Assembly: GCA_006226375.1 (NCBI GenBank)
Contig: SBHC01000009.1
Location: 14,527-78,526, forward strand
Length of the DNA stretch: 64,000 nt
Source: Deltaproteobacteria bacterium
GTDB lineage: Bacteria; Myxococcota_C; UBA6777
Direction: 5' to 3'
Below are positions 4,343 to 24,159 of the stretch, piece by piece. The position numbers and the translations under genes are program-made. Under the pieces are notes generated by a model. It saw nothing but the letters and a program-made list of their open reading frames with translations. It did no database searches and was not told the origin of the DNA. Positions within the stretch are counted from its first letter, which is position 1. Every line of letters begins with the position of its first letter.

Positions 4343-5011
4343 ATGCATACACTCCTCTTGCCTGAACATCACAACGCTGGGGTCCGTCTCTGTACAAGCC
4401 GGGACGAGCTGCGCCAAATCCACGAACCTGGTGTGGAAGTAGTGCTCTGGCTGCGAGAGCATCCACCTGAGCTTGTGTCCTATCTGAACGCTCTGGATAT
4501 CGCCTCCCAGAAGCGGAGTCACTTTCGTGTCGAACCTGGCCAGCTTCGGGAACAGCTACATCAACGACTCCAACCTCTCTCCACCCAACCTGAACCCTAC
4601 AAGCAATGGCTGAACGACATCCAAGACCTCGTGAACGAATACCAGCAACTTGTGGAGAATCCAACGCCTCGTGTGCGCCTTGATTTCATTCACAACAACG
4701 CTTGCCAACGTTTCCATCGCGACAACATGACCATCCGGTTGATAACAACCTACATCGGACCTGGCACCGAGTGGCTCCTCGCCGACCACCTGACCGTTGG
4801 CTCTCAACGCACCGACGAATACGCACAGGCGGATATCCAGCATGTCCCGCGATTTGCAGTGGGCTTGTTCAAAGGGATGCAACATCCCAACAACCAACCG
4901 ACTGTCTTTCATCGCTCCCCACCGATTGCTGGGCAAAACACCCACCGCTTCGTGCTGTGTCTCGACGACCTTGCCCCCAACCCAAAAGCACACCGCACCT
5001 CATCGAAATGA
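4343..5011 (+). CDS. DUF1826-family protein (unknown function)
   Basis: 222 aa. The core ACQRFHRDNMTIRLITTYIGPGTEWL ... FHRSPP resembles the conserved blocks I recall for DUF1826. The call is from memory of the family and is not searched. Confidence 0.45.
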   Translation: MHTLLLPEHHNAGVRLCTSRDELRQIHEPGVEVVLWLREHPPELVSYLNALDIASQKRSHFRVEPGQLREQLHQRLQPLSTQPEPYKQWLNDIQDLVNEYQQLVENPTPRVRLDFIHNNACQRFHRDNMTIRLITTYIGPGTEWLLADHLTVGSQRTDEYAQADIQHVPRFAVGLFKGMQHPNNQPTVFHRSPPIAGQNTHRFVLCLDDLAPNPKAHRTSSK

Positions 5012-5083
5012 AACATTTCTCCTACACCCACGACAACATCTCCAAACGAACGTGACCATCACCCCTCATCGAAGGAGGACAAC

Positions 5084-5887
5084 ATGCCCGGACCTATCTT
5101 GTCGATGGTTGGCTTTGCCATCGTGCTATCGGCGATCTCCTGGTACTTCTTAATCATTGATGCAGAGAAAGTCCCCAAGCGTGTGGGTGGATTTGCCAGC
5201 GCTTTGGTCATGGGTTCTGGAATCAGCCTCACTGGACTCGTTCTTTCTCCAAGCGCCTTCACAGGGACAATCACGGGGGTTGCTGCTCTGCTCGGAAGCT
5301 TCATCCTCTGGCTGCTGACACAGCGCCGCCTGCCCGACGGACAGCTTGTTGTGGGTGTAGGAGATCCCATGCCACCGCTTATCGCCCTCGACCCACACAG
5401 AAAGTCGTTCGACCTCAGCAAACTCAAAGGTCAACGCGTAATGGTGAAGTTCTTCCGAGGGAGTTGGTGACCTTACTGTCGCGCCGAGTTACGGCGCTTC
5501 CAAAAGATGAAGCCGATGCTTGACGAGTATGGAGTCCAAGTCATCGCGTTAAGCAAAGACCACCCGAACGCTGCCCGACGCCATCAAAATGAGGACAGGC
5601 TTGACTTCGTCCTTCTCTGTGACCCTGACCTCACGATCATCCGAGAGATGGGTCTCCTGCATGAAGGCGCTCTGGAGTTTCAAACCTTCTTCTTTGGACC
5701 CATCCGATTCCCCATCGGCTGGCCCACAGGTTTCAAACGTATGGCCATACCCACCACCTTGCTCCTCGACGAAGAACACAACGTTCAGTGGATCGACCAG
5801 GCCGAAGACTACCGCATTCGTGGCGACGCCCAACGCACAGAGGCCGCTCTCCAACATGTCTTCGGCCCCTTGGAAAAGATATCCTAA
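5084..5887 (+). CDS. membrane-anchored peroxiredoxin/redoxin (AhpC-TSA-like) protein with in-frame TGA at 5468-5470: candidate selenoprotein (UxxC), alternatively a disrupted gene
   Basis: Strong RBS AAGGAGG before ATG 5084. Track ORFs 5084-5470 and 5507-5887 share one frame. Read-through gives VMVKFFRGSW-[TGA]-PYCRAELRRF, so the stop replaces the first Cys of the family motif W-C-P-Y-C. The N-terminus has three hydrophobic helices. ATG 5507 has no SD-like sequence upstream. Confidence 0.6.
5481..5497 (+). promoter_or_regulatory. candidate bacterial SECIS hairpin
   Basis: GCGCCG (5481-5486) pairs perfectly with CGGCGC (5492-5497). The 5-nt loop AGUUA contains GU. The stem starts 10 nt after the in-frame UGA. 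Confidence 0.45.
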
Positions 5888-5890
5888 GAC

Positions 5891-7384
5891 TCAGGCAAGG
5901 TGCCCCATGTCCTCCCAGCTATCGAACACATGAACCGGATCGCACAACACCTCCAGACCTGACTCATCCACCTCTCCGACCTGCACCCCATGGAACCGAA
6001 ACCCTCTCTCTTTCTTCGCTCTCTCCACCCGCTGCAGCAAGTCATTCGAAGCCAAGAACAAACCATCAGAGATGAGCAACAAGTCCGCGCGCTCCCAACC
6101 GTCCAGAGCCAGACGATCCAGGGCATGTTGGACAGGGGCATGAACCTCTGTACCACCCGAGAAGCTATGCCGTAAGAAATCGAGAAAATGACGAAGGCCA
6201 CTGGCATCAAGGCTCAAGTCATGTTCACGAACCTGTTCAGGTCCGCTGAAGGTGTACACATAGCAACGACGACGGCTGCGATGCGCCATACGCATCACCT
6301 CCAACACCAACGCCTTGGCCACGGATTCGGGCTTTCCTGCCATAGAGCCCGAAGTATCGAGACAAACCACCATCGGCCCCCAACCGGGACGTCCTCTCTC
6401 CTCGCCTTCCTCGCTGGGCACAACCTCAGCTTCGTCAACAACCACTTCCTCCAAGCCTTCCATCTTGTAGGTAAGCAAGGCTTGTTCCGCCCGTCGAGCA
6501 TGCCAGACCCACCGCAACATCGGATGCAGCAGCAAGCTCGCCTCCGAAGGCAACATCCTCGAAAGATCGTTGGAGCGTGTAATCCCGCGAGCTTCTTCGG
6601 GAGCAGTCGAGACCCACAAACTTGTCACTTCAGGGCAGCGTTGCGCCATAGGACCCACCAAACGTTCGGCGATCGTTGGGCCATCCACGCACACATGCAA
6701 GCGCCCTAACATCCGGAGAATCTCCTTAATATCAGGCAACCGCTGAGAGAGTTGGTGCAAGGCCTGAACCTCCTCCCAGGTGCGCTCCTGCAAAAGGCCC
6801 CGGCTCAGATCCCAACCCAACCCAAGAACAGCCCGTAGCTCCTCGAACACAACCGTAAGCTCCGATAGCATACGTATGCGCTCTTCCCATACAGAGAGAA
6901 AATCATCCAGGTCTGGCTCAAACTCCAACCGGGCGAACTCCTCCCTAACTTCACTTGCATCGCTCCCATAACCTATCGAAGCGACGCCTTCTTCCTCTTT
7001 GTTCCCTTTTATCGCTTCCGATTCGGCTGAATGTTCCAAAGCAACTCGCCGAAGAAACTGCTGTTCACGGCGTTGGTGTTCGTTCTTTCGCAAGCTACGA
7101 ACCCAGTCCAGCAGGATGTCATCGGTTAACTCTGGGTTCTCTGCTGTAAACTGGGGAAGACCCATCCACTGGAAAGTCTCACGAAACAACGAAGCCAAGC
7201 CATCATCAGGCCACGCAAGACCCAAGGGAGGAAGCGTGCCGCCTAGCAGAGCTTCACGCCAAGCTAACACACCTTCGACACGTTCTTGCAGGCTTCCTTC
7301 GGTGAGAGTGATCACATCATCCACCAACAACGCTGGAAGCCGCTCCAAGCATGCAAAGCTATCGTCCCAGCCGGAATCAACCAT
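5891..7384 (-). CDS. ViaA-like VWA-domain protein (partner of the RavA-like ATPase)
   Basis: C-terminal VWA domain with a MIDAS-type motif (VVCLDTSGSMAG). ATG 7384 overlaps the upstream stop by 8 nt (ATGGTTGA), suggesting translational coupling. The track ORF extends to 7438, a 62-nt overlap that is less likely. Confidence 0.75.
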   Translation of the reverse strand: MVDSGWDDSFACLERLPALLVDDVITLTEGSLQERVEGVLAWREALLGGTLPPLGLAWPDDGLASLFRETFQWMGLPQFTAENPELTDDILLDWVRSLRKNEHQRREQQFLRRVALEHSAESEAIKGNKEEEGVASIGYGSDASEVREEFARLEFEPDLDDFLSVWEERIRMLSELTVVFEELRAVLGLGWDLSRGLLQERTWEEVQALHQLSQRLPDIKEILRMLGRLHVCVDGPTIAERLVGPMAQRCPEVTSLWVSTAPEEARGITRSNDLSRMLPSEASLLLHPMLRWVWHARRAEQALLTYKMEGLEEVVVDEAEVVPSEEGEERGRPGWGPMVVCLDTSGSMAGKPESVAKALVLEVMRMAHRSRRRCYVYTFSGPEQVREHDLSLDASGLRHFLDFLRHSFSGGTEVHAPVQHALDRLALDGWERADLLLISDGLFLASNDLLQRVERAKKERGFRFHGVQVGEVDESGLEVLCDPVHVFDSWEDMGHLA

Positions 7385-8954
7385 GAGCCTGGTTGCGACC
7401 CATAGGTTTTGTGACGGGTAGCTTGTTGTACCCTTCATGAACGTTTCTCAATCGAAGCAACAACGAATCCACATGGTCACGCACAGAGAGGAGAGCCTGA
7501 CGTGCCGGCTCAAGGAAAGACGAGTCAATCCACAGGTGGTCAGATAGCACAGTCTCCAGGTCATGAACATGTGTTTGGAGTTGTCCTTGCCACCCCTCAA
7601 TTTGACGCTGGTATTGGTGAAGCTGCTCCAAACGACTGTGAATGTAGGAAGGCGAGAACGAACGCGGTTGCAAGGCTGGAGGGTTGGCCTGACGCTCACA
7701 CAAACGGCTGATGTCTTTTTCCAGGTACTCGCGCAGACCTGACCAGTCTCGCAATGGCTGCTCGCGGTAACGCTTTCCAAATTGTAACTTCCCCAGTTCC
7801 TCCAAAGTGTAGCCACGGCCATCGTTGGTTCGGTCGGAGAGAGGCCGCCCTTGGTGACCGATCACAACGCCAGGTGCGACATACAGCGACTGATGTCCCC
7901 TTGTTTGCGGCCACTCCCCTTCCAAATCCGTCGCAAGAGAGCCGTCGGGTTGGTGGAACAAGCGCTTCCCTGCCTCGTTGCGCATAGGTTCGCGCTCTTG
8001 TTGGTCTTGCTCTAACTTTTGCTCCCACACCGACACAAGGTGGGTCAGGCGCGAGGGATTCCACTGCACGGAGTCACCCACCGCTTGCGTGTACCACGCA
8101 GCCACACGAGGCTGCTTCTCCACACGACTCCAAACCACATGCTGCAAGAGCCACGCATCCCACACCGAAACATCCGAGCGACCGTTGGAATAGGCAGACA
8201 CCTGCAGCAGCTTTACGATCTTTCGCCAACGTCGGTCAGAGACAACGATGCCTTCCTCTCGCAGAAACGTACGAAAGCTCTGCAACAACGAGACCACGTC
8301 GGAGCCCAAAGCGACAGACTGTGACTCAACTTGAATCTGGTGCAGCTCCTCTGAGGATAGCTGCAAGGAAGGTGGCAAAGCAAAAGAGGAGCTACCACGA
8401 AGCTGCAGCAAGGACGCAAACGCATCGTCCGACACAGGACCCACATACAAACGTAACAAGAAGCGGTCATACAACGCTTCCAGCTCGCTTCCATCAGGCA
8501 ACTCATTGGATGCGCCCACCACCGATAACAAAGGCGTAGTGATACGCTCACTGCCGTTGTCAAACTCGCGTTCATTCAGCAACGTAAGGAGCGCATTGAG
8601 AATGGCGCTGTTCGCCTTAAAAATTTCATCCAGAAAGGCAACAGACACTGTAGGCAAGTATCGTTCAATTTGCCGACGATACTGGTCTTGCTCCAGCGCT
8701 TTCACAGACAACGGGCCAAACAATTCCTCAGGCACCGTAAACCGCGTCAACAGATGCTCAAAGTAAGAGCCTTCATGCACAACATGATGCAAGCGTCGAG
8801 CCACCATGCTTTTGGCTGTACCCGGAGGACCCACCAACAGCAGATGCTCTCCAGACAGCAAAGCCAAAAGCGCCAGACGAACAGCCTGGTCTCGCTCCAC
8901 AAGGCCTGCCGTCATCCGATCTCGAATCGTTTGTAGCTTCTGGGTCAGTGTCAT
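7377..8954 (-). CDS. RavA/MoxR-like AAA+ ATPase
   Basis: Walker A is LLLVGPPGTAKS. The Walker B/sensor block AFLDEIFKANSAILNALLTLLNEREF is typical of the RavA/MoxR clade. It has a roughly 330-aa C-terminal extension, and the gene order ATPase-then-VWA matches ravA-viaA. Confidence 0.8.
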   Translation of the reverse strand: MTLTQKLQTIRDRMTAGLVERDQAVRLALLALLSGEHLLLVGPPGTAKSMVARRLHHVVHEGSYFEHLLTRFTVPEELFGPLSVKALEQDQYRRQIERYLPTVSVAFLDEIFKANSAILNALLTLLNEREFDNGSERITTPLLSVVGASNELPDGSELEALYDRFLLRLYVGPVSDDAFASLLQLRGSSSFALPPSLQLSSEELHQIQVESQSVALGSDVVSLLQSFRTFLREEGIVVSDRRWRKIVKLLQVSAYSNGRSDVSVWDAWLLQHVVWSRVEKQPRVAAWYTQAVGDSVQWNPSRLTHLVSVWEQKLEQDQQEREPMRNEAGKRLFHQPDGSLATDLEGEWPQTRGHQSLYVAPGVVIGHQGRPLSDRTNDGRGYTLEELGKLQFGKRYREQPLRDWSGLREYLEKDISRLCERQANPPALQPRSFSPSYIHSRLEQLHQYQRQIEGWQGQLQTHVHDLETVLSDHLWIDSSFLEPARQALLSVRDHVDSLLLRLRNVHEGYNKLPVTKPMGRNQAHG

Positions 8955-12480: not shown

Positions 12481-13859
12481 GAGTCCTCCTTCTCAATCAA
12501 CACATGAAGACGCTTCAAGTTCGCAGTGACACTGGGATGGTCGGGCTGCAAACGATGAGCCTCTTCAAAGATAGCTTTGGCTTTGATGTAATCCTTGGAA
12601 AGCAACGCCTCCAGGCCGTCATCAAGGAGCCGCTCAAAGGTTGTCGAATAGCTGGATGTATAGCTCGGCTCCGGTGAGGAAGAGAGGCTAGAGATGGTTG
12701 GAGAGTTTGCATAGGAACCCAACCGTACGTCGTCCAGGGAAGACGATGAAGGAGGGTCATCCAAGTTTCTCTCATAGTCGCGCAAACGACGGGCAGCCTT
12801 CTCGTACTCGAACTCCCGAGGAGAGGTGCTGTACGAACGGTCCAACACGCTGGAGCTTGCTGGCTTTGTCTCGTCATCAAGACCCTTCAAAGGGACGTTG
12901 TTTCCAAACGGCTCAACAAAGGCAGCAGCAGGAACAACAGTGCTCTCGGTGGCCTCCACTTTCGGAGGCTGCATCCAGCTGTTCGACGCCGCCTCCAAGT
13001 TATCCAGGGAGCTATCCCAATTTTCGCTCATGGTTGCGATGGCGTCCTGGATTTCATGCTGGGGAAGCAAGTCGGCCGATTGCAGATCGGTCCAACTCTG
13101 CTGTGCAGCGAGAAATTCATCGCTGTACATACCAGTGCTGAATGTTGGATTGTCAGGGTCTTCGTCGAAGGAGCGCGCGGCATCCAAGAGAATGCCTTCC
13201 CAATGGCCTGTTATGTTTTGCGGCCCAGGCTCTTTTCGCAGCGCGGAACATTGCACCGAAAGATCTTCGGCAAACATCATCCGGTAGACCGCTTCTTTGC
13301 CACCACCCTTTGCATCCACCGCCGACCAGAGCTGCCCTGCGTGAATCACGATTCGACCGTAAAATTCGCCCTTGTGGTGCATCAACACTTCCACCGAGTG
13401 TTGTCCCACACAAGCCATTTGAATGTAGTCAGGCAAAGCAAAAGGCAGCGCACCCGAGCTGCTCTCAAGCTCCAGCTTTTTCTCTACGATCTCACGCAAC
13501 TTGTGAAGCGAGAGTGGCTTCTCAAACACTTCAATGTTGCCAGCCCGCGGGATCCTCTCCGAGAAGTGGTCCACGAAGGCAGAGATAAATACAACCGACG
13601 CATGGGTGTGATGGGTGTCGAGCATTTGCAACACTTCGACACCAACGCCATCAGGAAGGTCCAGATCCGAAAGAACCAGGCGAGGTTGAATACGCTCCAA
13701 GATCTGAGACGCCTCAGCCAAGGTTCCGGCGCTGAAGACCTCGATCGACTCCACTTTCGAGAGGCCTCGGACCATAGACGAACGTAAGATCGGCTCGTCT
13801 TCAATGATCAAGACAGCCGGAGCTTCGACCACAGCTTCGGTAGAGTCAGCGAATTGCAT
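12477..13859 (-). CDS. response-regulator receiver + DUF4388-like domain + Ser-rich linker + TPR protein
   Basis: The REC domain reads VLIIEDEPILRS...RLVLSDLDLPDGVG. The DUF4388-like block reads LPDYIQMACVGQHSVEVLMHHKGEFYGRIVIHAGQLWSAVD...GKEAVYRMM. A C-terminal TPR-like helix pair follows. ATG 13859 overlaps the upstream stop (TGATG); the track ORF extends to 13910. Confidence 0.7.
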   Translation of the reverse strand: MQFADSTEAVVEAPAVLIIEDEPILRSSMVRGLSKVESIEVFSAGTLAEASQILERIQPRLVLSDLDLPDGVGVEVLQMLDTHHTHASVVFISAFVDHFSERIPRAGNIEVFEKPLSLHKLREIVEKKLELESSSGALPFALPDYIQMACVGQHSVEVLMHHKGEFYGRIVIHAGQLWSAVDAKGGGKEAVYRMMFAEDLSVQCSALRKEPGPQNITGHWEGILLDAARSFDEDPDNPTFSTGMYSDEFLAAQQSWTDLQSADLLPQHEIQDAIATMSENWDSSLDNLEAASNSWMQPPKVEATESTVVPAAAFVEPFGNNVPLKGLDDETKPASSSVLDRSYSTSPREFEYEKAARRLRDYERNLDDPPSSSSLDDVRLGSYANSPTISSLSSSPEPSYTSSYSTTFERLLDDGLEALLSKDYIKAKAIFEEAHRLQPDHPSVTANLKRLHVLIEKEDS

Positions 13860-14620
13860 CACACACGTCCCGGAATCTGGAAGATATCCTGCATAATGTC
13901 TGCGCCACACTGCAAGTTTTCCATGTAGTCGAGAAACTTCCCAACCATCTCTTTGCCCTGGAACATAGCTCCGTGTTGGGGTGCAATGATCTCAATGTCG
14001 AGCTGACGCACCATCTTCACCCACGGACGCAGCGCAGCGTTGCACGCCATGTAACGACGGTGAAATCCATCCATGTACTGCAAGTGCTGCTCAAAGTCGG
14101 AAACATAGATATAGTCCATGCCCAACGAAGCCCCCAAGTCACCGGTGTACAAGATCTTGGAGACCGGGTCATACACATGAAAGTTTCCACACGAGTGGAG
14201 AAAGTGAGCCGGCAACACCAGCAACTCCAGACCCGCCAGATTCATCACCATGCCTTCATCAGGGATCGGCAACAGACGCTCTTCCACCAAACGATCCAGG
14301 CCGAAGTGAGGGACAAATCGGACCCACAGTTTGGAGATATAAGCCGAGGCATCTGTCGTCATCAGCCAACCGTTGGCCGCCGCGATAATGTCGGGGTCTT
14401 GGTGCGATAGAAACAGGTACTTCAGCTTGCTGCGTCCCAACAAATGGGTCGTTTCGCTCAGCACCTTCGTGTACACCTTGTGTCCACCGGGATCGAGAAT
14501 CATTCCCTCACCGTTGTGGATAATCACGTGTTGGTTGGCCTGAACAGCAAGGCCATGACCAAAGTCTTCCAACAAAACGTTGCGGTGTTCACCTTGTTCA
14601 AATAGCATAGTATTGGGCAT
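13859..14620 (-). CDS. FprA/ODP-like di-iron metallo-beta-lactamase-fold protein without flavodoxin domain
   Basis: RBS GGGGAGAG lies 8 nt before ATG 14620. FLSHQDPDI aligns with the flavodiiron HxExDH site. AHFLHSCGNFHVYDPVSKILYTGDLGAS parallels the flavodiiron block (A)H.LHWP.S...Y....ILFS.DAFG. Confidence 0.55.
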   Translation of the reverse strand: MPNTMLFEQGEHRNVLLEDFGHGLAVQANQHVIIHNGEGMILDPGGHKVYTKVLSETTHLLGRSKLKYLFLSHQDPDIIAAANGWLMTTDASAYISKLWVRFVPHFGLDRLVEERLLPIPDEGMVMNLAGLELLVLPAHFLHSCGNFHVYDPVSKILYTGDLGASLGMDYIYVSDFEQHLQYMDGFHRRYMACNAALRPWVKMVRQLDIEIIAPQHGAMFQGKEMVGKFLDYMENLQCGADIMQDIFQIPGRV

Positions 14621-14771
14621 GATGCACTCTCCCCGGAGACACACAACACAAGGCTCAGGTATCTCCGTTACAAAACCTGGATGTAGAAGTGGGTCAGGAT
14701 AGCTTACCTGGGTCAGGTTGAGCGATCTCTTTCACTTGTCTTTCAGGAACACAAAACGCGCGTTTCGTCGG

Positions 14772-15137
14772 TTACAACACACGCTTAATGTCGGCTGCAG
14801 CTCGACGCATATCCAGAAAGATAAGACCGAGCTTGGCGGCTTTGTTGGTGAGAACAAGCAGCAAGGTACCCTCCCCTGCTGTCAGCATCACAGCATAACC
14901 ATCATCGCCGCGCACCAGAATTTCTTGAACGGTGCCGCGCTCCAGTTCGACGGCAGCTCGTGTTCCAAGACTGATCAACGTCGCACTCATACCAGCCACG
15001 CGGGTTTCGTCCACATGAGCAGGCAAAGCGCTCGCAATCATCAGTCCATCTTCAGAGATCAGCGCGCTAGCTTCAACGTCGGGGGATCCACTTTGCAGCG
15101 CTCGCAGAATTTTATTGAGATGTTCAACTCGTGACAT
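14772..15137 (-). CDS. Roadblock/LC7 (MglB-like) domain protein
   Basis: 121 aa. LNKILRALQSGSPDVEASALISEDGLMIASAL...AGMSATLISLGTRA...VRGDDGYAVMLTAGEGTLLLVL follows the typical Robl_LC7 pattern. Confidence 0.7.
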   Translation of the reverse strand: MSRVEHLNKILRALQSGSPDVEASALISEDGLMIASALPAHVDETRVAGMSATLISLGTRAAVELERGTVQEILVRGDDGYAVMLTAGEGTLLLVLTNKAAKLGLIFLDMRRAAADIKRVL

Positions 15138-15278
15138 TGCTGTCCTCCTACCTCACAACCTGAGTTTGGTTAGCTACACGTGACAAACCAAACGTACCTC
15201 CCTTCCCTGGGGATGTAGAACGGTACGTTGGTCGCAAACTTAAGTACTTCCGTTCGATAGCACGAAAAAAGCTATCAT

Positions 15279-15821
15279 TTACTTACGAGGAAGCTTGATA
15301 ATATTCTCGATCAAGGTCCTTTTCATACCGGTAAACTCGGTAATACGGTCCAGGCGATCTTCCTGGTACGACAGGTTGACAATAGCTAAGTCCAGGTCAA
15401 GGACCTTCAGCAAGCTACCTGTATATCTGGCGACATCATTGGGGTCTTGAAACTCTTCAGCGATGGCTTTGACCCCCAACACTCGGATCAAATTCATCAC
15501 GCCTTCCACCCAATGGGGAGACAGACCGATACGAACATGGGCCAAACCAATGCGCCAACGTTCCTCGATGTAACCCGACCCATAATCCCCATCAAACAAG
15601 CGAGCAAACCACTTGGCGTGTGTTCCTTTGAGGTGGTCAACGCGTCCTTCGATCAGCGCGGCGGTCTCGGGATGTTCGGCCAAGCTTTTGTAGAAGTAGT
15701 CGGTGATCGCCGCTTGGTGCCGAGCCATGATCGGACCAAGGATTTTGAGATTGTCTGCATCTTCTGGACTCAGGCCTGTGAGCGCCTGAAAGTCTTGAAT
15801 TGGCTGCTGGGAGGTTTGCAT
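15279..15821 (-). CDS. stand-alone protoglobin / globin-coupled-sensor type heme domain protein
   Basis: RBS GGAGAG lies 8 nt before ATG 15821; the track ORF starts at GTG 15836. AITDYFYKSLAEHPETAALI...HLKGTHAKWFARLF...RIGLAHVRIGLSPHWV matches sensor-globin/protoglobin blocks, including the proximal His context. No output domain is fused. Confidence 0.7.
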   Translation of the reverse strand: MQTSQQPIQDFQALTGLSPEDADNLKILGPIMARHQAAITDYFYKSLAEHPETAALIEGRVDHLKGTHAKWFARLFDGDYGSGYIEERWRIGLAHVRIGLSPHWVEGVMNLIRVLGVKAIAEEFQDPNDVARYTGSLLKVLDLDLAIVNLSYQEDRLDRITEFTGMKRTLIENIIKLPRK

Positions 15822-15891
15822 CGTTGATCTCTCCACTCAGGGTTTTCCATCCCTCGGGGGGATGTTCCAGTTTCATCGTTCCTATCGGTTC

Positions 15892-16908
15892 TCAAGAGGC
15901 GGCAGAACCTCGGTTTTCACCAGTCAGGGGAAGGGACACTGTGATGGTAGTGCCCACCCCTTCTTCGCTCTCCACCCAAAAGGTGCCTCCTGCGGCTTCT
16001 ACGGTTCGCGAACACAAGGCCAGCCCTACGCCAGTGCCGCGAGGTTTCGTCGAATAAAACAACTCTGTGCAATGCTTCAAAACATGGGGGGACATACCTT
16101 TGCCTGTATCGATCACCTTCAACTGAAAGAGCGTTTTGTCGATCAGGTCGGCCTGCACCACGACCCGGCCTCCTGGAGAACACGCTTGAATGGCGTTGCT
16201 AATCAGGTTGAACGCGATCGCATCCAAGACGGACGGTGAGAGCGGTAGCAGCGGCATAAGCGCAACTTTGCTCACCACAGAGACGCGCGTTTTGGAGGCT
16301 GTCCGGTTCATAATCCGGATCACATCTTCAATGTGGTAGTCAATCGCATGATGCTTCTTGCTCCGTAGATTCTTGCCGACAGACCCGATGCCGTGCAGGG
16401 TCAAGCTCATCCTACGAACTTCCATCAAAATGGCGTGCAGATCCATCGAAATGGACTCGTTGCTCTCCTCGATCAACAGCTGAACCACAGACTCAATCGC
16501 GGCGAGAGGATTGCGCAGTTCGTGCAAGATGGTGGGCAACATGTCGTTGAGGGTGGCCAGCTGAAGAAGCTTTTCGTGCTCGCGACGCAACGCCTCCACT
16601 TCATGGTCATCTCGCAGCCAACACACGCTGTAACCTTGCAACTCAGAGCGGCACTCGTCGGCAAAAGGAACCACCGTCGCATGAACGGTTTGCTCTGTTT
16701 TCACATCCTGAATTTGGAAGACAGACGTGGATTCTTCTTCGCTGTCACTCAAGCTCTCGACATCGCTCCAAGAACACACACGATCCCTCAGCTCACTCCA
16801 ATCTTTTTGGAGCACTTCGAGAGCATGCACATTGGCGTAACAAAGGGCCTTTCGTTCATCCAAGATCAAAACCCCAACAGGGAGCGAACGCAGCGCCTGC
16901 TTCCACAT
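15892..16908 (-). CDS. PAS sensor histidine kinase (soluble)
   Basis: The PAS-like N-terminus reads LPVGVLILDERKALCYAN. The H-box is ILHELRNPLAAI, and the ATPase blocks are NLISNAIQAC, VIDTGKGM and GTGVGLAL. Confidence 0.85.
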   Translation of the reverse strand: MWKQALRSLPVGVLILDERKALCYANVHALEVLQKDWSELRDRVCSWSDVESLSDSEEESTSVFQIQDVKTEQTVHATVVPFADECRSELQGYSVCWLRDDHEVEALRREHEKLLQLATLNDMLPTILHELRNPLAAIESVVQLLIEESNESISMDLHAILMEVRRMSLTLHGIGSVGKNLRSKKHHAIDYHIEDVIRIMNRTASKTRVSVVSKVALMPLLPLSPSVLDAIAFNLISNAIQACSPGGRVVVQADLIDKTLFQLKVIDTGKGMSPHVLKHCTELFYSTKPRGTGVGLALCSRTVEAAGGTFWVESEEGVGTTITVSLPLTGENRGSAAS

Positions 16909-16917
16909 ACTCGCCCC

Positions 16918-18852
16918 CTATTCCTGTGTTGAATGCTTGGTGAAGAAGAGGGGCTTTTCGCCGGACTTTTCGGTCGGCAAAGGGTATCCGATTGCCGCAG
17001 GCAAAGGAGTACTATCAATCCGGATTTCACTGGGGGTTTTGCACGACCCACATCGATTCTTGAGATACAGAGCAAAGTCGGCTGCGTTCATCGGTTTGGC
17101 ATACAAGTAGCCTTGCACCCAATCGCACTCGTGCTCTTGCAAAAACTGAACGTGCGCTGTGTTCTCGACGCCTTCTCCAATCACCCGCATGCCCAGACTA
17201 TGGGCCATGGAGATCATCGTCGACACCAACATTTTGGAGTCTTGGTTGTGCTCAACATCGTACACAAACGAACGATCGATCTTCAGCGTGTCGAAAGGAT
17301 AACGCTTGAGATAGCTCAGCGAAGAGTAACCTGTTCCAAAGTCATCGATGGAGAAGCCGATTCCCATCTGCTGCAGCTGCCCAAACGTCTGAAGCGCTTT
17401 TGCTTCATCGCAATTGGAGATGGTCGCCGACTCGGTAATTTCAATCTCCAGACATGACGCTTCAACATCTGCGTTCAGCAACGCCCGCTGTACCGTGGAA
17501 ACAAAGTCAGGTGACTGGAACTGCTGGGGCGAGACATTGACCGCAAGCTTTGGGATAGTATAGCCCGCTTCCTGCCAAGCCTTCAGATGACGACAAGCCG
17601 TCTCCAACACCCACTCACCCAGGGCTCCAATCAAGCCGATATCTTCGGCCAAACCAATAAACTTTTCAGGAGAGACACGACCCAACGACGGGCTGTTCCA
17701 GCGCAACAACACCTCTGCACTGACTAACTGCTCGGTAGCAACATCAAGAATCGGCTGGAACACAAGAGAGAGTTCCTTGCGTATCAACGCCATCCTCAAG
17801 CCATGTTCCATCACAATCCGTTGCGTGGCCACCAAATTCATCGTCTGGGTAAAAAAGTGGAACGATCCACGACCTGATTCTTTGGCCTTCTCCATCGCTT
17901 GTTCTGCCCGCTGCAGCAGCGTATAAGCATCATCAGCATCGTTGGGAAACAGAGCGGCTCCCACGCTAGCCGACAGAGAAAACTCCTGGCCTCCCATCAC
18001 AAACGTTTCGTCCATCACAGACATCACGTTGCGAACCAACTGCTCCGCGACCAAGGTGCTGGGGATATCTTGCAGAACGAGCACAAACTCATCAGCGTTG
18101 TAACGCGCCACAGTATCCGTGTTTCTGATGCATCCCTTCAACCGCTCGGCGATCAAGAACAACAGAGCATTTCCATCTTCAAAGCCGATAAGGTCATTGA
18201 CCTTCTTGAAGTGGTCAAGGTCAAAGAAGACCAAAAGCACCATCTTCTCATGACGACGCGCTTGAAGCAGGGCTTGGGAGAGACGGTCGATCGCAAGCAG
18301 TCGATTGGGTAGACCGGTCACGCTGTCGTAGTACGTGGTCTGGAAAAGCTGAGCTTCCTTTGCTTTGAGCAGCGAGAGGTCTTCCTTAACAGACGCATAA
18401 CCACTCAATTCATTTCGCTCGTTCTTCACTGGCGAGATCGTGACAAACTCCCACAGCTCCTCTCCCGACTTTTTGCGGTTGAGAAGCTCTCCCTGCCATG
18501 TACAACCTTTTAGAAGAGTGCCCCACATCTCTTGGTACACATCAGGAGATGTCTTTCCAGCGCTCAACACCCGTGGGTTGAGGCCAAAAACTTCGTTCAG
18601 ACGGTATCCATAGGTCTCTTCGAAGAAAGGATTGACATACTCTATCTCTCCAACGGCGTTGGTGAGCATAATCGACATCGGACTTTGCTCTACCACACGA
18701 GACAACATGATATTCTTCACACCATCTTCTTGAGGCTCTTCTTGATGAACACTGAACCATCGCCAGCACAACCATCCAACAACCCCAACCAGAACCAAAC
18801 CTAGCGCAAGCCAAAGAATCCCCGAAAGGGGTCCAGAGATGAACCGTTCCAT
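16918..18852 (-). CDS. TM-PAS-GGDEF(degenerate)-EAL c-di-GMP turnover protein
   Basis: N-terminal TM helix, then a PAS domain (IMLTNAVGEIEYVNPFFEETYGY). The GGDEF site is degenerate (ARYNADEFVLVL). The EAL domain looks intact (EVLLRW, NVSPQQF, EITES, SIDDFGTGYSSLSYL, EGVE). Confidence 0.85.
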   Translation of the reverse strand: MERFISGPLSGILWLALGLVLVGVVGWLCWRWFSVHQEEPQEDGVKNIMLSRVVEQSPMSIMLTNAVGEIEYVNPFFEETYGYRLNEVFGLNPRVLSAGKTSPDVYQEMWGTLLKGCTWQGELLNRKKSGEELWEFVTISPVKNERNELSGYASVKEDLSLLKAKEAQLFQTTYYDSVTGLPNRLLAIDRLSQALLQARRHEKMVLLVFFDLDHFKKVNDLIGFEDGNALLFLIAERLKGCIRNTDTVARYNADEFVLVLQDIPSTLVAEQLVRNVMSVMDETFVMGGQEFSLSASVGAALFPNDADDAYTLLQRAEQAMEKAKESGRGSFHFFTQTMNLVATQRIVMEHGLRMALIRKELSLVFQPILDVATEQLVSAEVLLRWNSPSLGRVSPEKFIGLAEDIGLIGALGEWVLETACRHLKAWQEAGYTIPKLAVNVSPQQFQSPDFVSTVQRALLNADVEASCLEIEITESATISNCDEAKALQTFGQLQQMGIGFSIDDFGTGYSSLSYLKRYPFDTLKIDRSFVYDVEHNQDSKMLVSTMISMAHSLGMRVIGEGVENTAHVQFLQEHECDWVQGYLYAKPMNAADFALYLKNRCGSCKTPSEIRIDSTPLPAAIGYPLPTEKSGEKPLFFTKHSTQE

Positions 18853-22061: not shown

Positions 22062-22184
22062 TCTCTGTACAACCCTTTGTTTCCCCAGAACTTCGCCTTG
22101 TTCGTCATTCTCATTGACCCCAGAACCACTTCCTTGCTACTCTCCTCCCAACTTCCCATATACCCACATCGCCAGGGAGCGACC

Positions 22185-23870
22185 ATGTTTTCTTTTTTCG
22201 GAAACAAGGACAAAAAGAAGTCACCCCCCACCTCCAAAGTGGAAGAAAGCCTGGAAGAACTCTCCACAGAGAGCCAGGAGATTCTCCGAGGCTACCTTCA
22301 CAGTGACCGCTACAGCTTCTCTACCTATCTAGGAGAAGGCGGCTTTGGGACGGTGGTTGCGAGCTTTGATGGCTACCTCAATCGGGCCACAGCGCTCAAG
22401 CAACTTCACTCTCATTTTCGCGACGACGTCCAACAACTTCGCGCGATCATGAACGAGGTGAGGCTGATCAGCTACCTTGCGCATCCTGGCGTGGTTTCCG
22501 TGTACGATGCCTTCGTGGATCCCGACGGGAACTTCAACTACACGATGGAGCTGCTCAACGGCGAAAACCTCGAAGACTTACTGTTCCGCCTGGAAGAGGA
22601 TGGCAAACGGTTCCCGCTCCCTCTGGCCATCAAGATCTTTACCAAGCTGATTGAAACCCTGGCGTTTGTCCACGACAAAGGGGTCATTCACCTCGACATC
22701 AAACCCTCCAACATCATGCTTGGAGAATACGGAGAGGTGCAGATCCTCGACTGGGGGAGCGCCCACCTCTACGCACCAGAACGATACGAAGAATACCTCC
22801 ATCACTACGGCAAAGACGCCAAAGCGGAGGATATGTTCCACGACCGCTCGGACCGGATCGAAGGCACCATCCCCTTCATGTCACCCGAACAAACGGAGCG
22901 TCCCCGGACCCAACTGACACCCGCCTCCGACATCTTCACAACCGGCGTTGTGATGTACCAGACGCTGTCGAGCCGATTCCCGTTCTCGTATGAGAACCTG
23001 GAACGTTTCCTTCACGACCTCCATCAAGTGGAGCCACCCCTTCTGCACGAGCTGCGCGGTGACATCCCTATCCGCTTGTCCCAGATCTGCGCCAAGATGA
23101 TGTCCAAGTCCATCGAAGATCGCTACAGCACCTTCCAAGAAGTGCTGCAAGACCTGGAAGACTTCTCCAACTCAGGGCAGATGTTTCGCCAGGCAGTGTA
23201 CCAACCTGGAGAGGTTTTGATCCGTCAAGGAGAGATGGGCGACCATGCGTTCCAGGTCATCGATGGCCGGGTAGAAATCTCCGTTGAAGTCGACGGCAAA
23301 GAAAAAGTCCTCGCAACCCGAGGCTCTGGTGCCATCATTGGCGAATTGGCTGTGTTTACCAAGGAGCCTCGCTCTGCCACAGTCACGGCCCGTGAAACCA
23401 CCACCATCAAAGTCCTCAACGAGGCGATGATTATGGAGGAGTTGGAGAAACTCAACCCTTGGGTCGGCCACATGGTGTACCAACTCTCCCAACGATTCAT
23501 TGAACAGAACAAACGCATCATCGCGATGGAATTGGAACGCACCAAATACTTGGGAGACAACGCCGCTGAGGAGGATGAACTTCTCGACAACGGCTCGACC
23601 TCGCGAGAAGCGATTGAACGAGAGCTGTCCAGCCTCAACTCTCTCCCCTCCGCGTCGTCCTCCCAGACCAACCTGGAGGAGTCAGCATCGTCCCCTTCCA
23701 CATCGTCCGACAATGCTCCCCAAGAACCGATGCATCGCCCGACCCCTGCATCCCGCTCCGATGGCTATACGCCCAGAGGCACAGCGATCAGCGAGAACTC
23801 CCCACTTCATCAAGGCAACGAACCCAAGACATCCAACTGGAACCCCAAACGGGAAGACGAAGACCTCTAA
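22185..23870 (+). CDS. Ser/Thr protein kinase fused to a cyclic-nucleotide-binding domain
   Basis: RBS GGGAGCG before ATG 22185; the track ORF starts at 22077. Kinase motifs are GEGGFGTV, HLDIKPSNIML, DWGSA and GTIPFMSPEQ. The cNMP block is GEVLIRQGEMGDHAFQVIDGRVEI...GAIIGELAVFTKEPRSATVTA. The tail is Ser/Pro-rich. Confidence 0.85.
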   Translation: MFSFFGNKDKKKSPPTSKVEESLEELSTESQEILRGYLHSDRYSFSTYLGEGGFGTVVASFDGYLNRATALKQLHSHFRDDVQQLRAIMNEVRLISYLAHPGVVSVYDAFVDPDGNFNYTMELLNGENLEDLLFRLEEDGKRFPLPLAIKIFTKLIETLAFVHDKGVIHLDIKPSNIMLGEYGEVQILDWGSAHLYAPERYEEYLHHYGKDAKAEDMFHDRSDRIEGTIPFMSPEQTERPRTQLTPASDIFTTGVVMYQTLSSRFPFSYENLERFLHDLHQVEPPLLHELRGDIPIRLSQICAKMMSKSIEDRYSTFQEVLQDLEDFSNSGQMFRQAVYQPGEVLIRQGEMGDHAFQVIDGRVEISVEVDGKEKVLATRGSGAIIGELAVFTKEPRSATVTARETTTIKVLNEAMIMEELEKLNPWVGHMVYQLSQRFIEQNKRIIAMELERTKYLGDNAAEEDELLDNGSTSREAIERELSSLNSLPSASSSQTNLEESASSPSTSSDNAPQEPMHRPTPASRSDGYTPRGTAISENSPLHQGNEPKTSNWNPKREDEDL

Positions 23871-24159
23871 CCAACCCTCCCTCAACCTCACAGACACACC
23901 AACCACGAAAACCGTTTGGACCGCTGAGACTCCAATGTCACAAAGCCAAACCTCCCACAGGGGACACAAGAACCCCCAACTCCCCAAACCAAGGAATACC
24001 GGCGTCTAGCGACATGGCATAGACCTTGCTTTTCTGAGAAAGCGTACACGATGAAACACGCAGCGACGCGTGAAGAATAGCACACCCTTCAGGTTTTCTT
24101 AGACTTGTAGGGGTGTGACAAAGCGACGTGCAAATGCGACAGAACGAAAGGACAAAGCT

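What the first reader, a model, noticed from the sequence alone, without database searches (positions are those of the whole stretch)
5084..5887. In-frame UGA at the redox cysteine of a membrane-anchored peroxiredoxin-like gene, with a SECIS-like hairpin: candidate selenoprotein
The two track ORFs (5084-5470, 5507-5887) are in one frame. They are separated only by TGA 5468-5470 plus 12 sense codons. Read-through gives ...KGQRVMVKFFRGSW-[UGA]-PYCRAELRRFQKMKPMLDEYGVQVIALS.... AhpC/TSA-redoxin family proteins carry W-C-P-Y-C at this position, so the stop replaces the first redox Cys. The second Cys is retained, giving U-x-x-C. Ten nt after the UGA a perfect 6-bp GC stem (GCGCCG/CGGCGC, 5481-5497) closes a 5-nt loop, AGUUA, that contains GU. 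That position and loop type fit bacterial SECIS elements. The downstream half has no SD-like sequence before its ATG, whereas the upstream start has a strong AAGGAGG. The N-terminal third forms three hydrophobic helices, so the product would be a membrane-tethered Sec-redoxin. It sits in a redox neighbourhood (Bat genes, TlpA-like thioredoxin). Prx-like UxxC selenoproteins are known in bacteria. A TM-anchored one in this lineage would still be worth confirming, and automatic annotation would split or pseudogenise it.
Basis: partly seen in the sequence, partly recalled or inferred. Interest (0 to 1): 0.8.

Follow-up and report, generated by a model that had tools for sequence, protein, structure and literature searches.

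The report
Membrane-anchored peroxiredoxin-like selenoprotein gene
The apparent stop codon inside this gene almost certainly encodes selenocysteine in a membrane-anchored redox enzyme, but the enzyme family was already catalogued as a selenoprotein family in 2008, so this is a genuine, routinely mis-annotated example rather than a new kind of system.

Summary
ORFs 5084-5470 and 5507-5887 share one frame, interrupted only by TGA 5468-5470. Ten nt downstream lies the hairpin GCGCCG-AGUUA-CGGCGC (5481-5497).

The Sec interpretation is strongly supported:
- The read-through protein is an AhpC/TSA-redoxin (Pfam 4e-24) behind three N-terminal transmembrane helices.
- Cys homologues have W-C-P-Y-C at the UGA column.
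- Of 49 related species-level genome loci, 45 carry TGA at exactly this codon. These were retrieved through a motif about 110 codons downstream of the UGA. Only gammaproteobacteria carry TGT/TGC.
- All TGA forms keep the hairpin: 99.6% of cells paired, 3 of 6 pairs with compensatory changes, loop A-G-U-U invariant. Cys forms lack it.
- The hairpin meets all four published bacterial SECIS criteria.
- Sequence after the UGA is under purifying selection (dN/dS 0.09-0.25).

It is not new in kind. By the field's definition (pfam00578 plus UxxC) it belongs to the "Prx-like thiol:disulfide oxidoreductase / Prx-like 1" selenoproteins. Clear relatives are in the 2008 GOS selenoprotein dataset.

Not shown: selA/B/C/D in this genome (none in the window) and any conserved "redox neighbourhood". 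The membrane anchor and likely cytoplasmic orientation appear undescribed. Interest is modest.

The parts
5072..5078 (+). Shine-Dalgarno sequence AAGGAGG, 5 nt upstream of the start codon
   Evidence: Read directly from the sequence.
5084..5887 (+). Complete selenoprotein gene: 267 codons (266 sense codons plus Sec-UGA at codon 129), followed by stop codon TAA 5885-5887
   Evidence: Single open frame apart from the TGA. Pfam AhpC-TSA 4e-24 and Redoxin 2.7e-18. tblastn alignments to 49 loci run across the TGA in one frame.
5093..5320 (+). N-terminal membrane anchor: three predicted transmembrane helices (about residues 4-25, 36-55, 58-79)
   Evidence: Kyte-Doolittle windows above 1.6. Helices 4-23, 36-58 and 63-85 in the AlphaFold model of Cys homologue P0001, pLDDT 92.4. 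K+R is enriched in loop 1 (2.67) and after TM3 (2.94), against 0.09 and 0.15 in the other loops, which predicts N-terminus out and catalytic domain in the cytoplasm.
5357..5791 (+). AhpC/TSA (thioredoxin/peroxiredoxin-fold) catalytic domain, residues 92-236
   Evidence: Pfam PF00578 covers residues 92-236. The closest solved sequences are ResA and BCP. The fold of the homologue model matches BCP/AhpE/ResA at a target-normalised TM-score of about 0.8-0.9.
5468..5470 (+). In-frame UGA read as selenocysteine (Sec129)
   Evidence: TGA at the aligned codon in 45 of 49 related genome loci and TGT/TGC in 4. Cys in all full-length database homologues. 13 of 41 window ORFs end in TGA, so UGA is otherwise a stop here.
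5468..5479 (+). Redox motif U-P-Y-C (Sec129 ... Cys132), preceded by invariant Trp128
   Evidence: W, C/U, P, Y and C are invariant or nearly invariant in 85 homologues. The motif aligns to the WCxxC of ResA.
5481..5497 (+). SECIS element: 6-bp stem GCGCCG/CGGCGC with 5-nt apical loop AGUUA (5487-5491). It lies within codons R-A-E-L-R-R
   Evidence: -10.3 kcal/mol. Conserved in 47 of 47 TGA forms, 99.6% paired, compensatory changes at 3 pairs. Absent from Cys forms. Loop Leu codon is UUR in 46 of 46, against 14.9% of Leu codons elsewhere in the same genes. Meets the bSECIS criteria quoted in PMC13188914.
5549..5857 (-). Spurious antisense ORF (102 aa) that an automatic gene caller reported instead of the downstream half of the selenoprotein gene. 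It is not a real part of the gene
   Evidence: Gene calls on Logan contig SRR8389941_6163 list only the 128-aa N-terminal half, plus a 102-aa minus-strand gene at L051 10466-10774, which is window 5549-5857.

Best explanation
Window 5084-5887 is one gene for a 266-residue selenoprotein, a membrane-anchored Prx-like thiol:disulfide oxidoreductase with a W-U-P-Y-C active site.

Recoding (shown by comparative sequence evidence):
- UGA 5468-5470 is recoded to selenocysteine.
- The signal is a minimal bacterial SECIS: a 17-nt hairpin at 5481-5497 with a 6-bp G+C stem and apical loop AGUUA.
- The loop begins 16 nt after the UGA, inside the coding sequence for A-E-L-R-R.

Recoding mechanism (inferred from the established bacterial pathway): SelB-GTP-Sec-tRNA(Sec) binds the loop G-U and delivers Sec to the ribosome paused at the UGA.

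Architecture (predicted):
- Three N-terminal transmembrane helices tether a thioredoxin/peroxiredoxin-fold domain to the membrane.
- The positive-inside rule places that domain on the cytoplasmic face.

Chemistry (inferred):
- Sec129, at the position of the nucleophilic first Cys of a Trx/ResA-type CxxC motif, attacks an oxidised substrate.
- Cys132 resolves the intermediate as a selenenylsulfide.
- A cytoplasmic thioredoxin- or glutaredoxin-type reductant then reduces the selenenylsulfide.

Substrate: unknown. Candidates are a membrane-proximal disulfide or a (lipid) hydroperoxide.
For: Gene and family:
- One frame, with AhpC/TSA and Redoxin domains spanning the UGA.
- Cys homologues carry WCP(Y/F)C at the column.

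Conservation of the UGA:
- 45 of 49 loci have TGA at exactly this codon. They come from Myxococcota, Binatia, Chloroflexota, Actinomycetota, Acidobacteria and Alphaproteobacteria.
- Only gammaproteobacteria have TGT/TGC.
- The loci were retrieved by the peptide WIDQA[ESD]D[YFV], far from the UGA, so retrieval was not biased toward TGA.

The hairpin:
- 99.6% of cells paired. Pair 14-30 is GC 19 / CG 16 / UA 8 and pair 18-26 is CG 35 / UA 10. 0 of 500 shuffles reach the observed covariation score or percentage paired, and slid controls collapse.
- The covariation couples amino-acid-changing bases (second base of the variable codon after the resolving Cys, hereafter codon x; R/Q codon) to synonymous third positions. 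This cannot be selection on the protein.
- Loop Leu is UUR in 46 of 46, against 14.9% elsewhere. Synonymous resampling gives the full stem in 3.2% of cases, against 46 of 46 observed.
- Cys forms have no hairpin.
- All four bSECIS criteria are met: 5-nt loop, 6-bp stem, G at loop position 2 followed by U, 16-nt spacing, -10.3 kcal/mol.

Translation past the UGA:
- dN/dS after the UGA is 0.09-0.25.
- TGA is a normal stop for 13 of 41 ORFs in the window.

Sec use in carriers:
- Plesiocystis pacifica SIR-1, a TGA-form carrier (L010), is listed with 6 selenoproteins in the supplementary organism table of Peng et al. 2016. Alteromonas and Marinomonas (Cys forms) are not in it.

Breadth and prior knowledge:
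- More than 120 metagenome contigs carry the W-UGA-PYC-x-AEL-plus-stem signature.
- GOS 'Prx-like 1' selenoprotein reads are homologous: 37% identity, 1e-31.

Anchor and topology.
Against: - No selA, selB, selD or tRNA-Sec lies in the 64-kb window. The rest of the genome could not be searched, so the decoding capacity of this organism is inferred, not shown.
- No second selenoprotein gene was recognised in the window.
- The single-sequence fold of the region is not better than shuffles.
- Sequences in the covariation set are phylogenetically related, so the counts are not independent events.
- There is no experimental evidence for Se incorporation, topology or activity.
- The gene neighbourhood gives no functional clue for Sec forms.
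Confidence: 0.88

Rival explanations
1. Pseudogene: a peroxiredoxin-like gene inactivated by a nonsense mutation at the catalytic Cys codon (TGC/TGT to TGA).
For: A single base change from a Cys codon gives TGA. No Sec machinery is visible in the window. A real pseudogene of this family exists for comparison: L036 in Alteromonas sp. 4B03.
Against: The same TGA is found in 45 genomes of several phyla. dN/dS downstream of the UGA is 0.09-0.25, lower than upstream. There are no other stops or frameshifts. The hairpin is co-conserved. The true pseudogene L036 looks different: its N-terminus is lost, its stop is at the Trp codon, and it has no hairpin.
Confidence: 0.02
2. Two separately translated genes: a small membrane protein ending at TGA 5470, and a 126-aa redoxin fragment starting at ATG 5507.
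For: Gene callers report such halves. Databases hold many 127-139-aa N-terminal pieces and roughly 126-aa C-terminal pieces named 'peroxiredoxin'.
Against: The 12 codons between the TGA and ATG 5507 encode PYC-x-AEL-R, conserved in all 47 sequences and including the resolving Cys. No SD precedes ATG 5507. The C-terminal piece alone would lack the active site and the first beta strands of the fold. The internal Met position varies among relatives, giving ORF starts 21 or 39 nt after the TGA.
Confidence: 0.02
3. Stop-codon reassignment or SECIS-independent read-through: UGA read as Trp, Gly or Cys by a near-cognate or suppressor tRNA, with no selenium involved.
For: UGA followed by C is a leaky context. 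Organisms with reassigned UGA exist, and one database homologue (P0019) appears to come from one.
Against: 13 of 41 ORFs in the window terminate with TGA. The UGA sits exactly at a redox Cys column. A covarying hairpin with a G-U loop at canonical spacing accompanies every UGA form and no Cys form. At least one carrier (P. pacifica) is listed as a selenoprotein-containing organism.
Confidence: 0.04
4. Intact-looking relic: the gene and its SECIS are inherited, but this particular organism has lost the Sec-decoding genes, so only the truncated 128-aa membrane peptide is made.
For: Sec machinery could not be checked for this genome, and the Sec trait is known to be lost sporadically (PMC1794560, title and abstract).
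Against: Window versus nearest relatives shows dN/dS of 0.12-0.25 after the UGA and a perfect 6-bp stem. A recently orphaned gene would be expected to start decaying or to revert to Cys.
Confidence: 0.04

Closest known systems
Prx-like thiol:disulfide oxidoreductase selenoproteins ('Prx-like 1' of the GOS study; pfam00578, UxxC/UxxU; Kryukov & Gladyshev 2004; PMC2398784; PMC9312934; PMC13188914)
   Same: Same Pfam domain. Same UxxC motif, with Sec replacing the first Cys of CxxC. Cys homologues are abundant, and a bSECIS follows the UGA. GOS reads JCVI_READ_1092403976278 (37% identity, 1e-31) and JCVI_READ_1095515488827 (hydrophobic N-terminus followed by LLKFFRGHWUPYCVAELKRW) are clear relatives filed under 'Prx-like 1'.
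   Different: The papers read here do not mention a membrane anchor for this family. 'Transmembrane' occurs 0 times in PMC2398784 and PMC13188914, and 'membrane' 0 times in PMC1794560. The three-helix anchor, the conserved C-terminal WIDQAxDYRxR motif and the invariant AGUUR SECIS loop define a sub-clade that has not been described separately. No NCBIfam model reaches its cut-off.
ResA / TlpA / CcmG extracytoplasmic thiol-disulfide oxidoreductases
   Same: Best sequence match among solved structures: 4nmu ResA at 4.3e-09, with WCxxC aligned. Thioredoxin-like fold with the cis-Pro 'IPTT' loop. The N-terminal Cys/Sec of the motif is the likely nucleophile.
   Different: Those proteins have one anchor helix or a lipoprotein signal and act outside the cytoplasm. 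This protein has three helices, and charge bias predicts a cytoplasmic domain. NCBIfam scores are far below the cut-offs: ResA 40 versus 170, TlpA 23 versus 230. It also has a roughly 25-residue hydrophobic beta-hairpin insertion before the cis-Pro loop.
BCP/PrxQ and AhpE peroxiredoxins
   Same: Best fold matches, at target-normalised TM-scores of about 0.8-0.9. Same Pfam family.
   Different: The Prx signature PxxxT/SxxC is not present. In the alignment to BCP 2cx3, the Prx Cys aligns to Cys132, the Thr/Ser position is occupied by Sec129, and the Pro position by Arg125. A classical Prx peroxidatic mechanism is therefore not expected.
E. coli fdhF-type bacterial SECIS and the bSECISearch consensus
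   Same: A stem-loop immediately downstream of the UGA within the ORF, with G-U in a small apical loop, 16-nt spacing and an MFE below -7.5 kcal/mol. From my own knowledge, the minimal functional fdhF element is likewise a 17-nt upper stem-loop about 11 nt from the UGA.
   Different: No bulged U and no long lower stem. The loop sequence AGUUR is family-specific. The element is at the short extreme of the allowed spacing.
Iodothyronine deiodinases (eukaryotic membrane-anchored, Prx-fold selenoenzymes)
   Same: They work alike in outline: an N-terminal membrane anchor plus a Prx-like fold carrying a catalytic Sec. The abstract of PMC11592359 calls them 'selenocysteine-containing membrane enzymes'.
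   Different: They have a single anchor helix, a different active-site motif and Sec position, a eukaryotic 3'-UTR SECIS and a dehalogenase chemistry. There is no evidence of direct relationship.

Membership tests
Prx-like thiol:disulfide oxidoreductase selenoproteins (Prx-like 1; pfam00578 + UxxC) | AhpC/TSA (pfam00578) domain above the curated threshold | tested here: met
   PF00578 scores 85.4 bits against a cut-off of 26, E = 4e-24, residues 92-236.
Prx-like thiol:disulfide oxidoreductase selenoproteins (Prx-like 1; pfam00578 + UxxC) | In-frame UGA in a UxxC motif, aligned to the first Cys of CxxC in Cys-containing homologues | tested here: met
   W-[UGA]-P-Y-C. WCP(Y/F)C in full-length homologues. 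45 TGA and 4 TGY at the aligned codon.
Prx-like thiol:disulfide oxidoreductase selenoproteins (Prx-like 1; pfam00578 + UxxC) | Sequence homology to members already catalogued as selenoproteins | tested here: met
   BLASTP to GOS 'Prx-like 1' reads from Dataset S1 of PMC2398784 gives 37% identity at 1e-31 and 33% identity at 4e-18. The type example WP_010940744.1 (Geobacter) could not be retrieved for comparison.
Prx-like thiol:disulfide oxidoreductase selenoproteins (Prx-like 1; pfam00578 + UxxC) | Bacterial SECIS downstream of the UGA: loop 3-9 nt, stem 4-16 bp, G in the first two loop positions, 16-37 nt from the UGA, MFE <= -7.5 kcal/mol | tested here: met
   Loop of 5 nt (AGUUA), stem of 6 bp, G at loop position 2 followed by U, 16 nt spacing, -10.3 kcal/mol. 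Conserved with covariation.
Prx-like thiol:disulfide oxidoreductase selenoproteins (Prx-like 1; pfam00578 + UxxC) | Host genome has the Sec-decoding trait (selA, selB, selC/tRNA-Sec, selD) | not testable with these tools
   None of these is in the 64-kb window or in the flanks of related loci. Indirect support: P. pacifica SIR-1, a carrier of the TGA form, is listed with 6 selenoproteins.
Prx-like thiol:disulfide oxidoreductase selenoproteins (Prx-like 1; pfam00578 + UxxC) | Selenium actually incorporated at the UGA | not testable with these tools
   Needs 75Se labelling or mass spectrometry.
Typical peroxiredoxins (BCP/PrxQ, AhpC, AhpE) | Active-site signature PxxxT/SxxC, with the peroxidatic Cys preceded by Thr/Ser at -3 and Pro at -7 | tested here: not met
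   Relative to Cys132, position -3 is Sec129 and position -7 is Arg125. In the alignment to BCP 2cx3, F-F-P-A-A-F-S-P-V-C pairs with F-F-R-G-S-W-U-P-Y-C.
Typical peroxiredoxins (BCP/PrxQ, AhpC, AhpE) | Peroxiredoxin-type thioredoxin fold | tested here: met
   Foldseek of the Cys-homologue model hits BCP, AhpE, BcpB and AhpC at E of 1e-11 to 1e-9, with target-normalised TM-scores of about 0.8-0.9 for the BCP, AhpE and BcpB hits.
ResA/TlpA/CcmG membrane-anchored thiol-disulfide oxidoreductases | Curated family model score (NCBIfam ResA NF002854, TlpA NF047696) | tested here: not met
   40.3 bits against a cut-off of 170, and 22.9 bits against a cut-off of 230.
ResA/TlpA/CcmG membrane-anchored thiol-disulfide oxidoreductases | Single N-terminal anchor or signal, with the redox domain outside the cytoplasm | tested here: not met
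   Three helices. K+R is 2.67 in loop 1 and 2.94 after TM3, against 0.09 and 0.15 in the other loops, which predicts a cytoplasmic domain. This is a prediction, not an experiment.
SelL-related redox proteins (NF040769) and ResA-like WAxxUGC selenoproteins (NF041054) | Curated model cut-off | tested here: not met
   32.7 bits against a cut-off of 120, and 27.8 bits against a cut-off of 300.

The most novel reading that the evidence does not exclude
This gene represents a distinct sub-clade of integral-membrane bacterial selenoproteins that is widespread across phyla and so far undescribed. Its features would be:
- three TM helices, with the N-terminus out and the catalytic domain on the cytoplasmic face;
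- a Sec-Cys redox centre held at the inner membrane surface;
- a hydrophobic beta-hairpin insertion next to the active site;
- action on membrane-embedded substrates, for example reduction of lipid hydroperoxides (a bacterial functional analogue of GPx4) or re-reduction of a membrane protein or quinone-linked thiol.

Its minimal 17-nt SECIS would also be a clean case of an RNA element dictating the protein sequence, through the A-E-L-R/Q-R motif and the R/Q switch coupled to a synonymous Ala codon.
Probability: 0.25. Interest if true: 0.5.

Novelty: new member of a known kind. Interest (0 to 1): 0.3.

Why it matters
Annotation:
- This selenoprotein clade is systematically mis-annotated.
- In 45 of 49 species-level genomes, and in more than 120 metagenome contigs, the gene carries the UGA.
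- Public protein sets hold it as truncated N-terminal halves, and as C-terminal halves named 'peroxiredoxin'. No curated NCBIfam model covers it.
- A family-specific model would repair these calls. It needs only the UGA, the PYC-x-AEL context and the AGUUR hairpin.

Biology:
- It adds a membrane-tethered architecture to the bacterial selenoproteome.
- It gives an unusually clear, minimal and phylum-spanning SECIS, with covariation between amino-acid-changing and synonymous positions. That is useful for SECIS modelling and for engineering Sec insertion.

It does not change what is known in principle about Prx-like UxxC selenoproteins.

Tried and rejected
- **Sec machinery in the window.** ARAGORN found no tRNA. 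Rfam found no family at gathering score. Pfam scans of 40 large ORFs found no SelA/SelB/SelD. ARAGORN on 50 related loci found no tRNA-Sec. This is uninformative about the whole genome.
- **A second selenoprotein in the window.** A scan for in-frame TGAs with 50 or more open codons on both sides gave 109 candidates, essentially all spurious long ORFs of a 53% G+C sequence. Only 5468 has a redox context inside a real gene. The annotation gap 27.7-29.3 kb held nothing relevant.
- **Conserved neighbourhood.** tblastn of 12 window neighbours against 50 loci gave no hits. All-versus-all clustering of flanking ORFs found no neighbour shared by Sec forms. The 'Bat/TlpA redox neighbourhood' argument was therefore dropped.
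- **Single-sequence folding significance.** Not significant, z = -0.57. It was replaced by comparative tests.
- **Promoter and terminator scan of 4800-6200.** Nothing meaningful, and the SECIS hairpin is not terminator-like.
- **NCBIfam.** No family passes its cut-off.
- The read-through protein could not be submitted to the search of protein representatives because of the stop codon or non-window sequence. An alignment of homologues plus the two window halves was used instead. The downstream half (5507-5884) is not on record as a called gene.
- **Literature.** No paper on the P. pacifica selenoproteome as such. No paper on transmembrane Prx-like bacterial selenoproteins.
Full report
**1. The observation**

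The sequence is as described.
- ATG 5084 is preceded by AAGGAGG (5072-5078). It opens a frame that runs to TAA 5885-5887, interrupted only by TGA 5468-5470.
- The 12 codons after the TGA read PYCRAELRRFQK and are followed by ATG 5507, which has no SD-like sequence.
- Ten nt after the TGA lies GCGCCG-AGUUA-CGGCGC (5481-5497).
- With Cys in place of the stop, the read-through product matches Pfam AhpC-TSA (4e-24) and Redoxin (2.7e-18) across the stop.
- On its own the region does not fold better than shuffled sequence (z = -0.57). The case therefore rests on comparison with other genomes.

**2. A Cys aligns to the UGA**

- The first protein search found only six relatives. All full-length ones have F-F-R-G-x-W-C-P-Y-C at this place.
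- A profile search of 1.84 billion cluster representatives found 56 proteins at E <= 1e-30. These were full-length proteins of about 250-290 aa with WCP(Y/F)C, many 127-139-aa proteins ending exactly in ...FFRGxW, and many proteins of about 120-130 aa starting shortly after the motif.
- The last two classes are what gene callers make of UGA-containing members. Sources name them 'peroxiredoxin' or 'peroxiredoxin family protein'. None is labelled a selenoprotein.

**3. The UGA is conserved across phyla**

- A scan of one genome per species used the peptide WIDQA[ESD]D[YFV], about 110 codons downstream of the UGA and so blind to it. It returned 50 loci.
- tblastn alignments cross the position in one frame in 49 of them. 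45 loci have TGA at exactly the aligned codon, and a tandem second copy in L047 has it too.
- The TGA-form loci are from Myxococcota, Binatia, Chloroflexota/Anaerolineae, Actinomycetota, Acidobacteria and Alphaproteobacteria MAGs, and from the isolate Plesiocystis pacifica SIR-1.
- Only Alteromonas, Motilimonas and Marinomonas have TGT/TGC.
- The residues after the stop (P-Y-C-x-A-E-L-R/Q-R) are conserved in all of them. Neither a pseudogene nor two separate genes can explain that.
- Nei-Gojobori estimates give dN/dS of 0.09-0.25 for the part after the UGA, lower than for the part before it.
- TGA terminates 13 of 41 ORFs in the window, so the organism uses the standard code.
- An independent assembly (Logan SRR8389941) encodes the identical 128-aa N-terminal product. 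This argues against an assembly error.

**4. The hairpin is a SECIS**

- In the alignment of 47 TGA-form sequences (A3), columns 14-19 pair with 30-25 in 99.6% of cells.
- Three of the six pairs show changes on both sides. Pair 14-30 is GC 19 / CG 16 / UA 8, pair 18-26 is CG 35 / UA 10, and pair 16-28 includes one UA.
- No shuffle out of 500 reaches the observed covariation score or percentage paired. Sliding the partner by 1-3 columns collapses pairing to 23-70%.
- The covariation is informative because it links different kinds of sites. Here 'codon x' is the variable codon after the resolving Cys.
  - The second base of codon x (Ser, Cys, Thr, Val, Ala or Arg) covaries with the synonymous third base of the second Arg codon.
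  - The synonymous third base of the Ala codon (GCC/GCU) covaries with the second base of the next-but-two codon. This switches the amino acid between Arg (CGG) and Gln (CAG).
- Loop positions A-G-U-U are invariant.
  - The loop Leu is encoded by UUR in 46 of 46 genes, although only 14.9% of the other Leu codons in the same genes are UUR.
  - The loop Glu is GAG in 46 of 46, against 64% elsewhere.
  - Resampling synonymous codons reproduces the full stem in 3.2% of trials, against 46 of 46 observed.
- The four Cys-form loci cannot form the stem, with energies from +6 to +11 kcal/mol for the imposed structure.
- The element meets every criterion of the published bacterial SECIS consensus (legend of Fig. 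2 of PMC13188914).

| Criterion | Published range | This element |
|---|---|---|
| Apical loop | 3-9 nt | 5 nt |
| Upper stem | 4-16 bp | 6 bp |
| G in first two loop positions | required | position 2, followed by U |
| Spacing from UGA to loop | 16-37 nt | 16 nt |
| MFE | <= -7.5 kcal/mol | -10.3 kcal/mol |

- The caveat is that the sequences are related, so cell counts are not independent events. Several pair types still recur in different clades.

**5. Sec-decoding capacity**

- The window has no tRNA and no Rfam family at gathering score. None of 40 large ORFs matches SelA, SelB or SelD.
- Indirectly, P. pacifica SIR-1 carries the TGA form (L010). It is listed with six selenoproteins in the supplementary organism table of Peng et al. 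2016, while Alteromonas and Marinomonas do not appear there.

**6. Architecture and likely mechanism**

- Hydropathy shows three hydrophobic segments at about residues 4-25, 36-55 and 58-79.
- An AlphaFold model of the Cys homologue P0001 (85-sequence alignment, pLDDT 92.4, pTM 0.88) has three long N-terminal helices followed by a thioredoxin/peroxiredoxin fold. A lower-confidence beta-hairpin insertion precedes the cis-Pro 'AIPTT' loop.
- Across 85 homologues, K+R averages 2.67 in the loop after helix 1 and 2.94 after helix 3, against 0.09 at the N-terminus and 0.15 in loop 2. By the positive-inside rule the N-terminus is outside and the catalytic domain faces the cytoplasm. This is a prediction.
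- The closest solved sequences are ResA (4nmu, 4.3e-09, WCxxC aligned) and BCP. The closest folds are BCP, AhpE, BcpB and ResA, at target-normalised TM-scores of about 0.8-0.9.
- The Prx signature PxxxT/SxxC is not kept. Cys132 aligns with the Prx peroxidatic Cys, and Sec129 occupies the Thr/Ser position. This is the CxxC arrangement of thioredoxin-like oxidoreductases.
- I therefore favour a selenol/thiol oxidoreductase cycle. Sec129 attacks, a Sec129-Cys132 selenenylsulfide forms, and a cytoplasmic thioredoxin- or glutaredoxin-type reductant re-reduces it at the membrane surface.
- A GPx-like peroxidase cycle through a selenenic acid is chemically possible and not excluded. The substrate is unknown.

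**7. Genomic context**

- The neighbours in the window are a TlpA-like redoxin, DUF1826, VWA, bpMoxR and an AraC regulator. None is found beside the homologues elsewhere.
- Clustering of flanking ORFs shows no neighbour shared among Sec-form loci.
- In the Cys-form gammaproteobacteria the gene sits between a DSBA-like thioredoxin-domain gene and a divergent LysR regulator. This fits a thiol-redox or stress role but says nothing specific.

**8. Comparison with what is known**

- Selenoprotein families are defined in the field by conserved domain plus Sec motif. [quoted passage not shown]
- In the GOS study 'Prx-like 1 (pfam00578, UxxC)' had 225 sequences. Its sequence dataset contains reads that are plainly of this clade:
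  - JCVI_READ_1095515488827 has a hydrophobic N-terminus followed by LLKFFRGHWUPYCVAELKRW.
  - JCVI_READ_1092403976278 has 37% identity to the window protein at 1e-31 and ends in WMDQSENY.
- The gene is therefore a new member of a known kind.
- Three things appear not to have been described:
  - the membrane anchor ('transmembrane' is absent from PMC2398784 and PMC13188914, and 'membrane' from PMC1794560; one search found nothing relevant);
  - the sub-clade's invariant minimal SECIS;
  - the scale of mis-annotation. There is no NCBIfam model, more than 120 metagenome contigs carry the signature, and a gene caller reported the N-terminal half plus a spurious antisense ORF.

**9. Verdict**

- Confidence is about 0.88 that the UGA encodes Sec through the SECIS at 5481-5497.
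- Novelty: new member of a known kind.
- Interest is modest (0.3). A specialist would not be surprised by a UxxC Prx-like selenoprotein. The membrane-anchored architecture, the clean SECIS covariation and the annotation problem are still worth a note.

Noticed in passing
L036:9740-10560 (Alteromonas sp. 4B03 chromosome, about 2.25 Mb): A second, decayed copy of the Cys-form gene. The N-terminal helices are lost behind several stops, the conserved Trp codon is TGA (GS*CPYC), and there is no hairpin. It is a useful picture of what a real pseudogene of this family looks like.
   Followed up: partly
L047:10370 and L047:10981: Two tandem copies of the gene, both with TGA at the Sec column and both with the hairpin. 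The second copy has a U-A/C-G compensated 5-bp stem. Its tblastn match starts at query residue 90, so it may lack the membrane anchor.
   Followed up: no
protein P0019: This low-G+C homologue has Trp at several positions where the family has conserved Gly (FRWSW for FRGSW, VSRWNK for VxVGD). The source organism probably reads UGA as Gly (candidate-division SR1/Gracilibacteria code) and was translated with UGA = Trp. It carries Cys, not UGA, at the Sec column.
   Followed up: no
protein P0004: A 195-aa database protein on a 955-bp contig. Its C-terminal 120 residues are 64% identical to the window protein, but its N-terminus resembles a polysaccharide deacetylase/PuuE-type sequence. It is probably a chimeric contig or gene-call artefact.
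   Followed up: no
window 5549-5857 (-): A 102-aa antisense ORF inside the selenoprotein gene was called as a gene on the Logan contig, in place of the true downstream half.
   Followed up: yes
window 24115-24696 (+) and 62633-63715 (-): Two bacterial proteins with C2 domains (Pfam PF00168, 8.7e-07 and 7.7e-25). This domain is mostly eukaryotic.
   Followed up: no
window 36342-41006 (+): A 1554-aa protein with 11 Stig1-like Cys-rich repeats (PF04885, 1.3e-83) and SBBP beta-propeller repeats.
   Followed up: no
window 56710-59655 (-) and 22077-23870 (+): Two Ser/Thr protein kinases with unusual fusions: one to an FGE-sulfatase (SUMF1-like) domain, the other to a cyclic-nucleotide-binding domain. 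With the kinase-rich content, this fits a myxobacterium-like genome.
   Followed up: no
window 13859-18852 (-): A signalling cluster: ODP-family metallo-beta-lactamase-fold protein, protoglobin, histidine kinase and a PAS-GGDEF-EAL protein. It may be an O2/NO-sensing c-di-GMP module. A bacteriophytochrome with HWE kinase and receiver domains lies at 31140-33734 (-).
   Followed up: no
L026, L034, L035 (Cys-form gammaproteobacteria), within 2 kb either side of the gene: These loci share a conserved neighbourhood absent from Sec-form loci. A DSBA-like thioredoxin-domain gene lies immediately upstream and a divergent LysR regulator immediately downstream (Pfam).
   Followed up: partly
window 5891-8954 (-): A VWA protein and a bpMoxR-type AAA+ ATPase (PF20030, 'MoxR-vWA-beta-propeller ternary systems') lie convergent with the selenoprotein gene. 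The upstream ORF 11-1510 has no Pfam hit at E <= 1e-3.
   Followed up: partly
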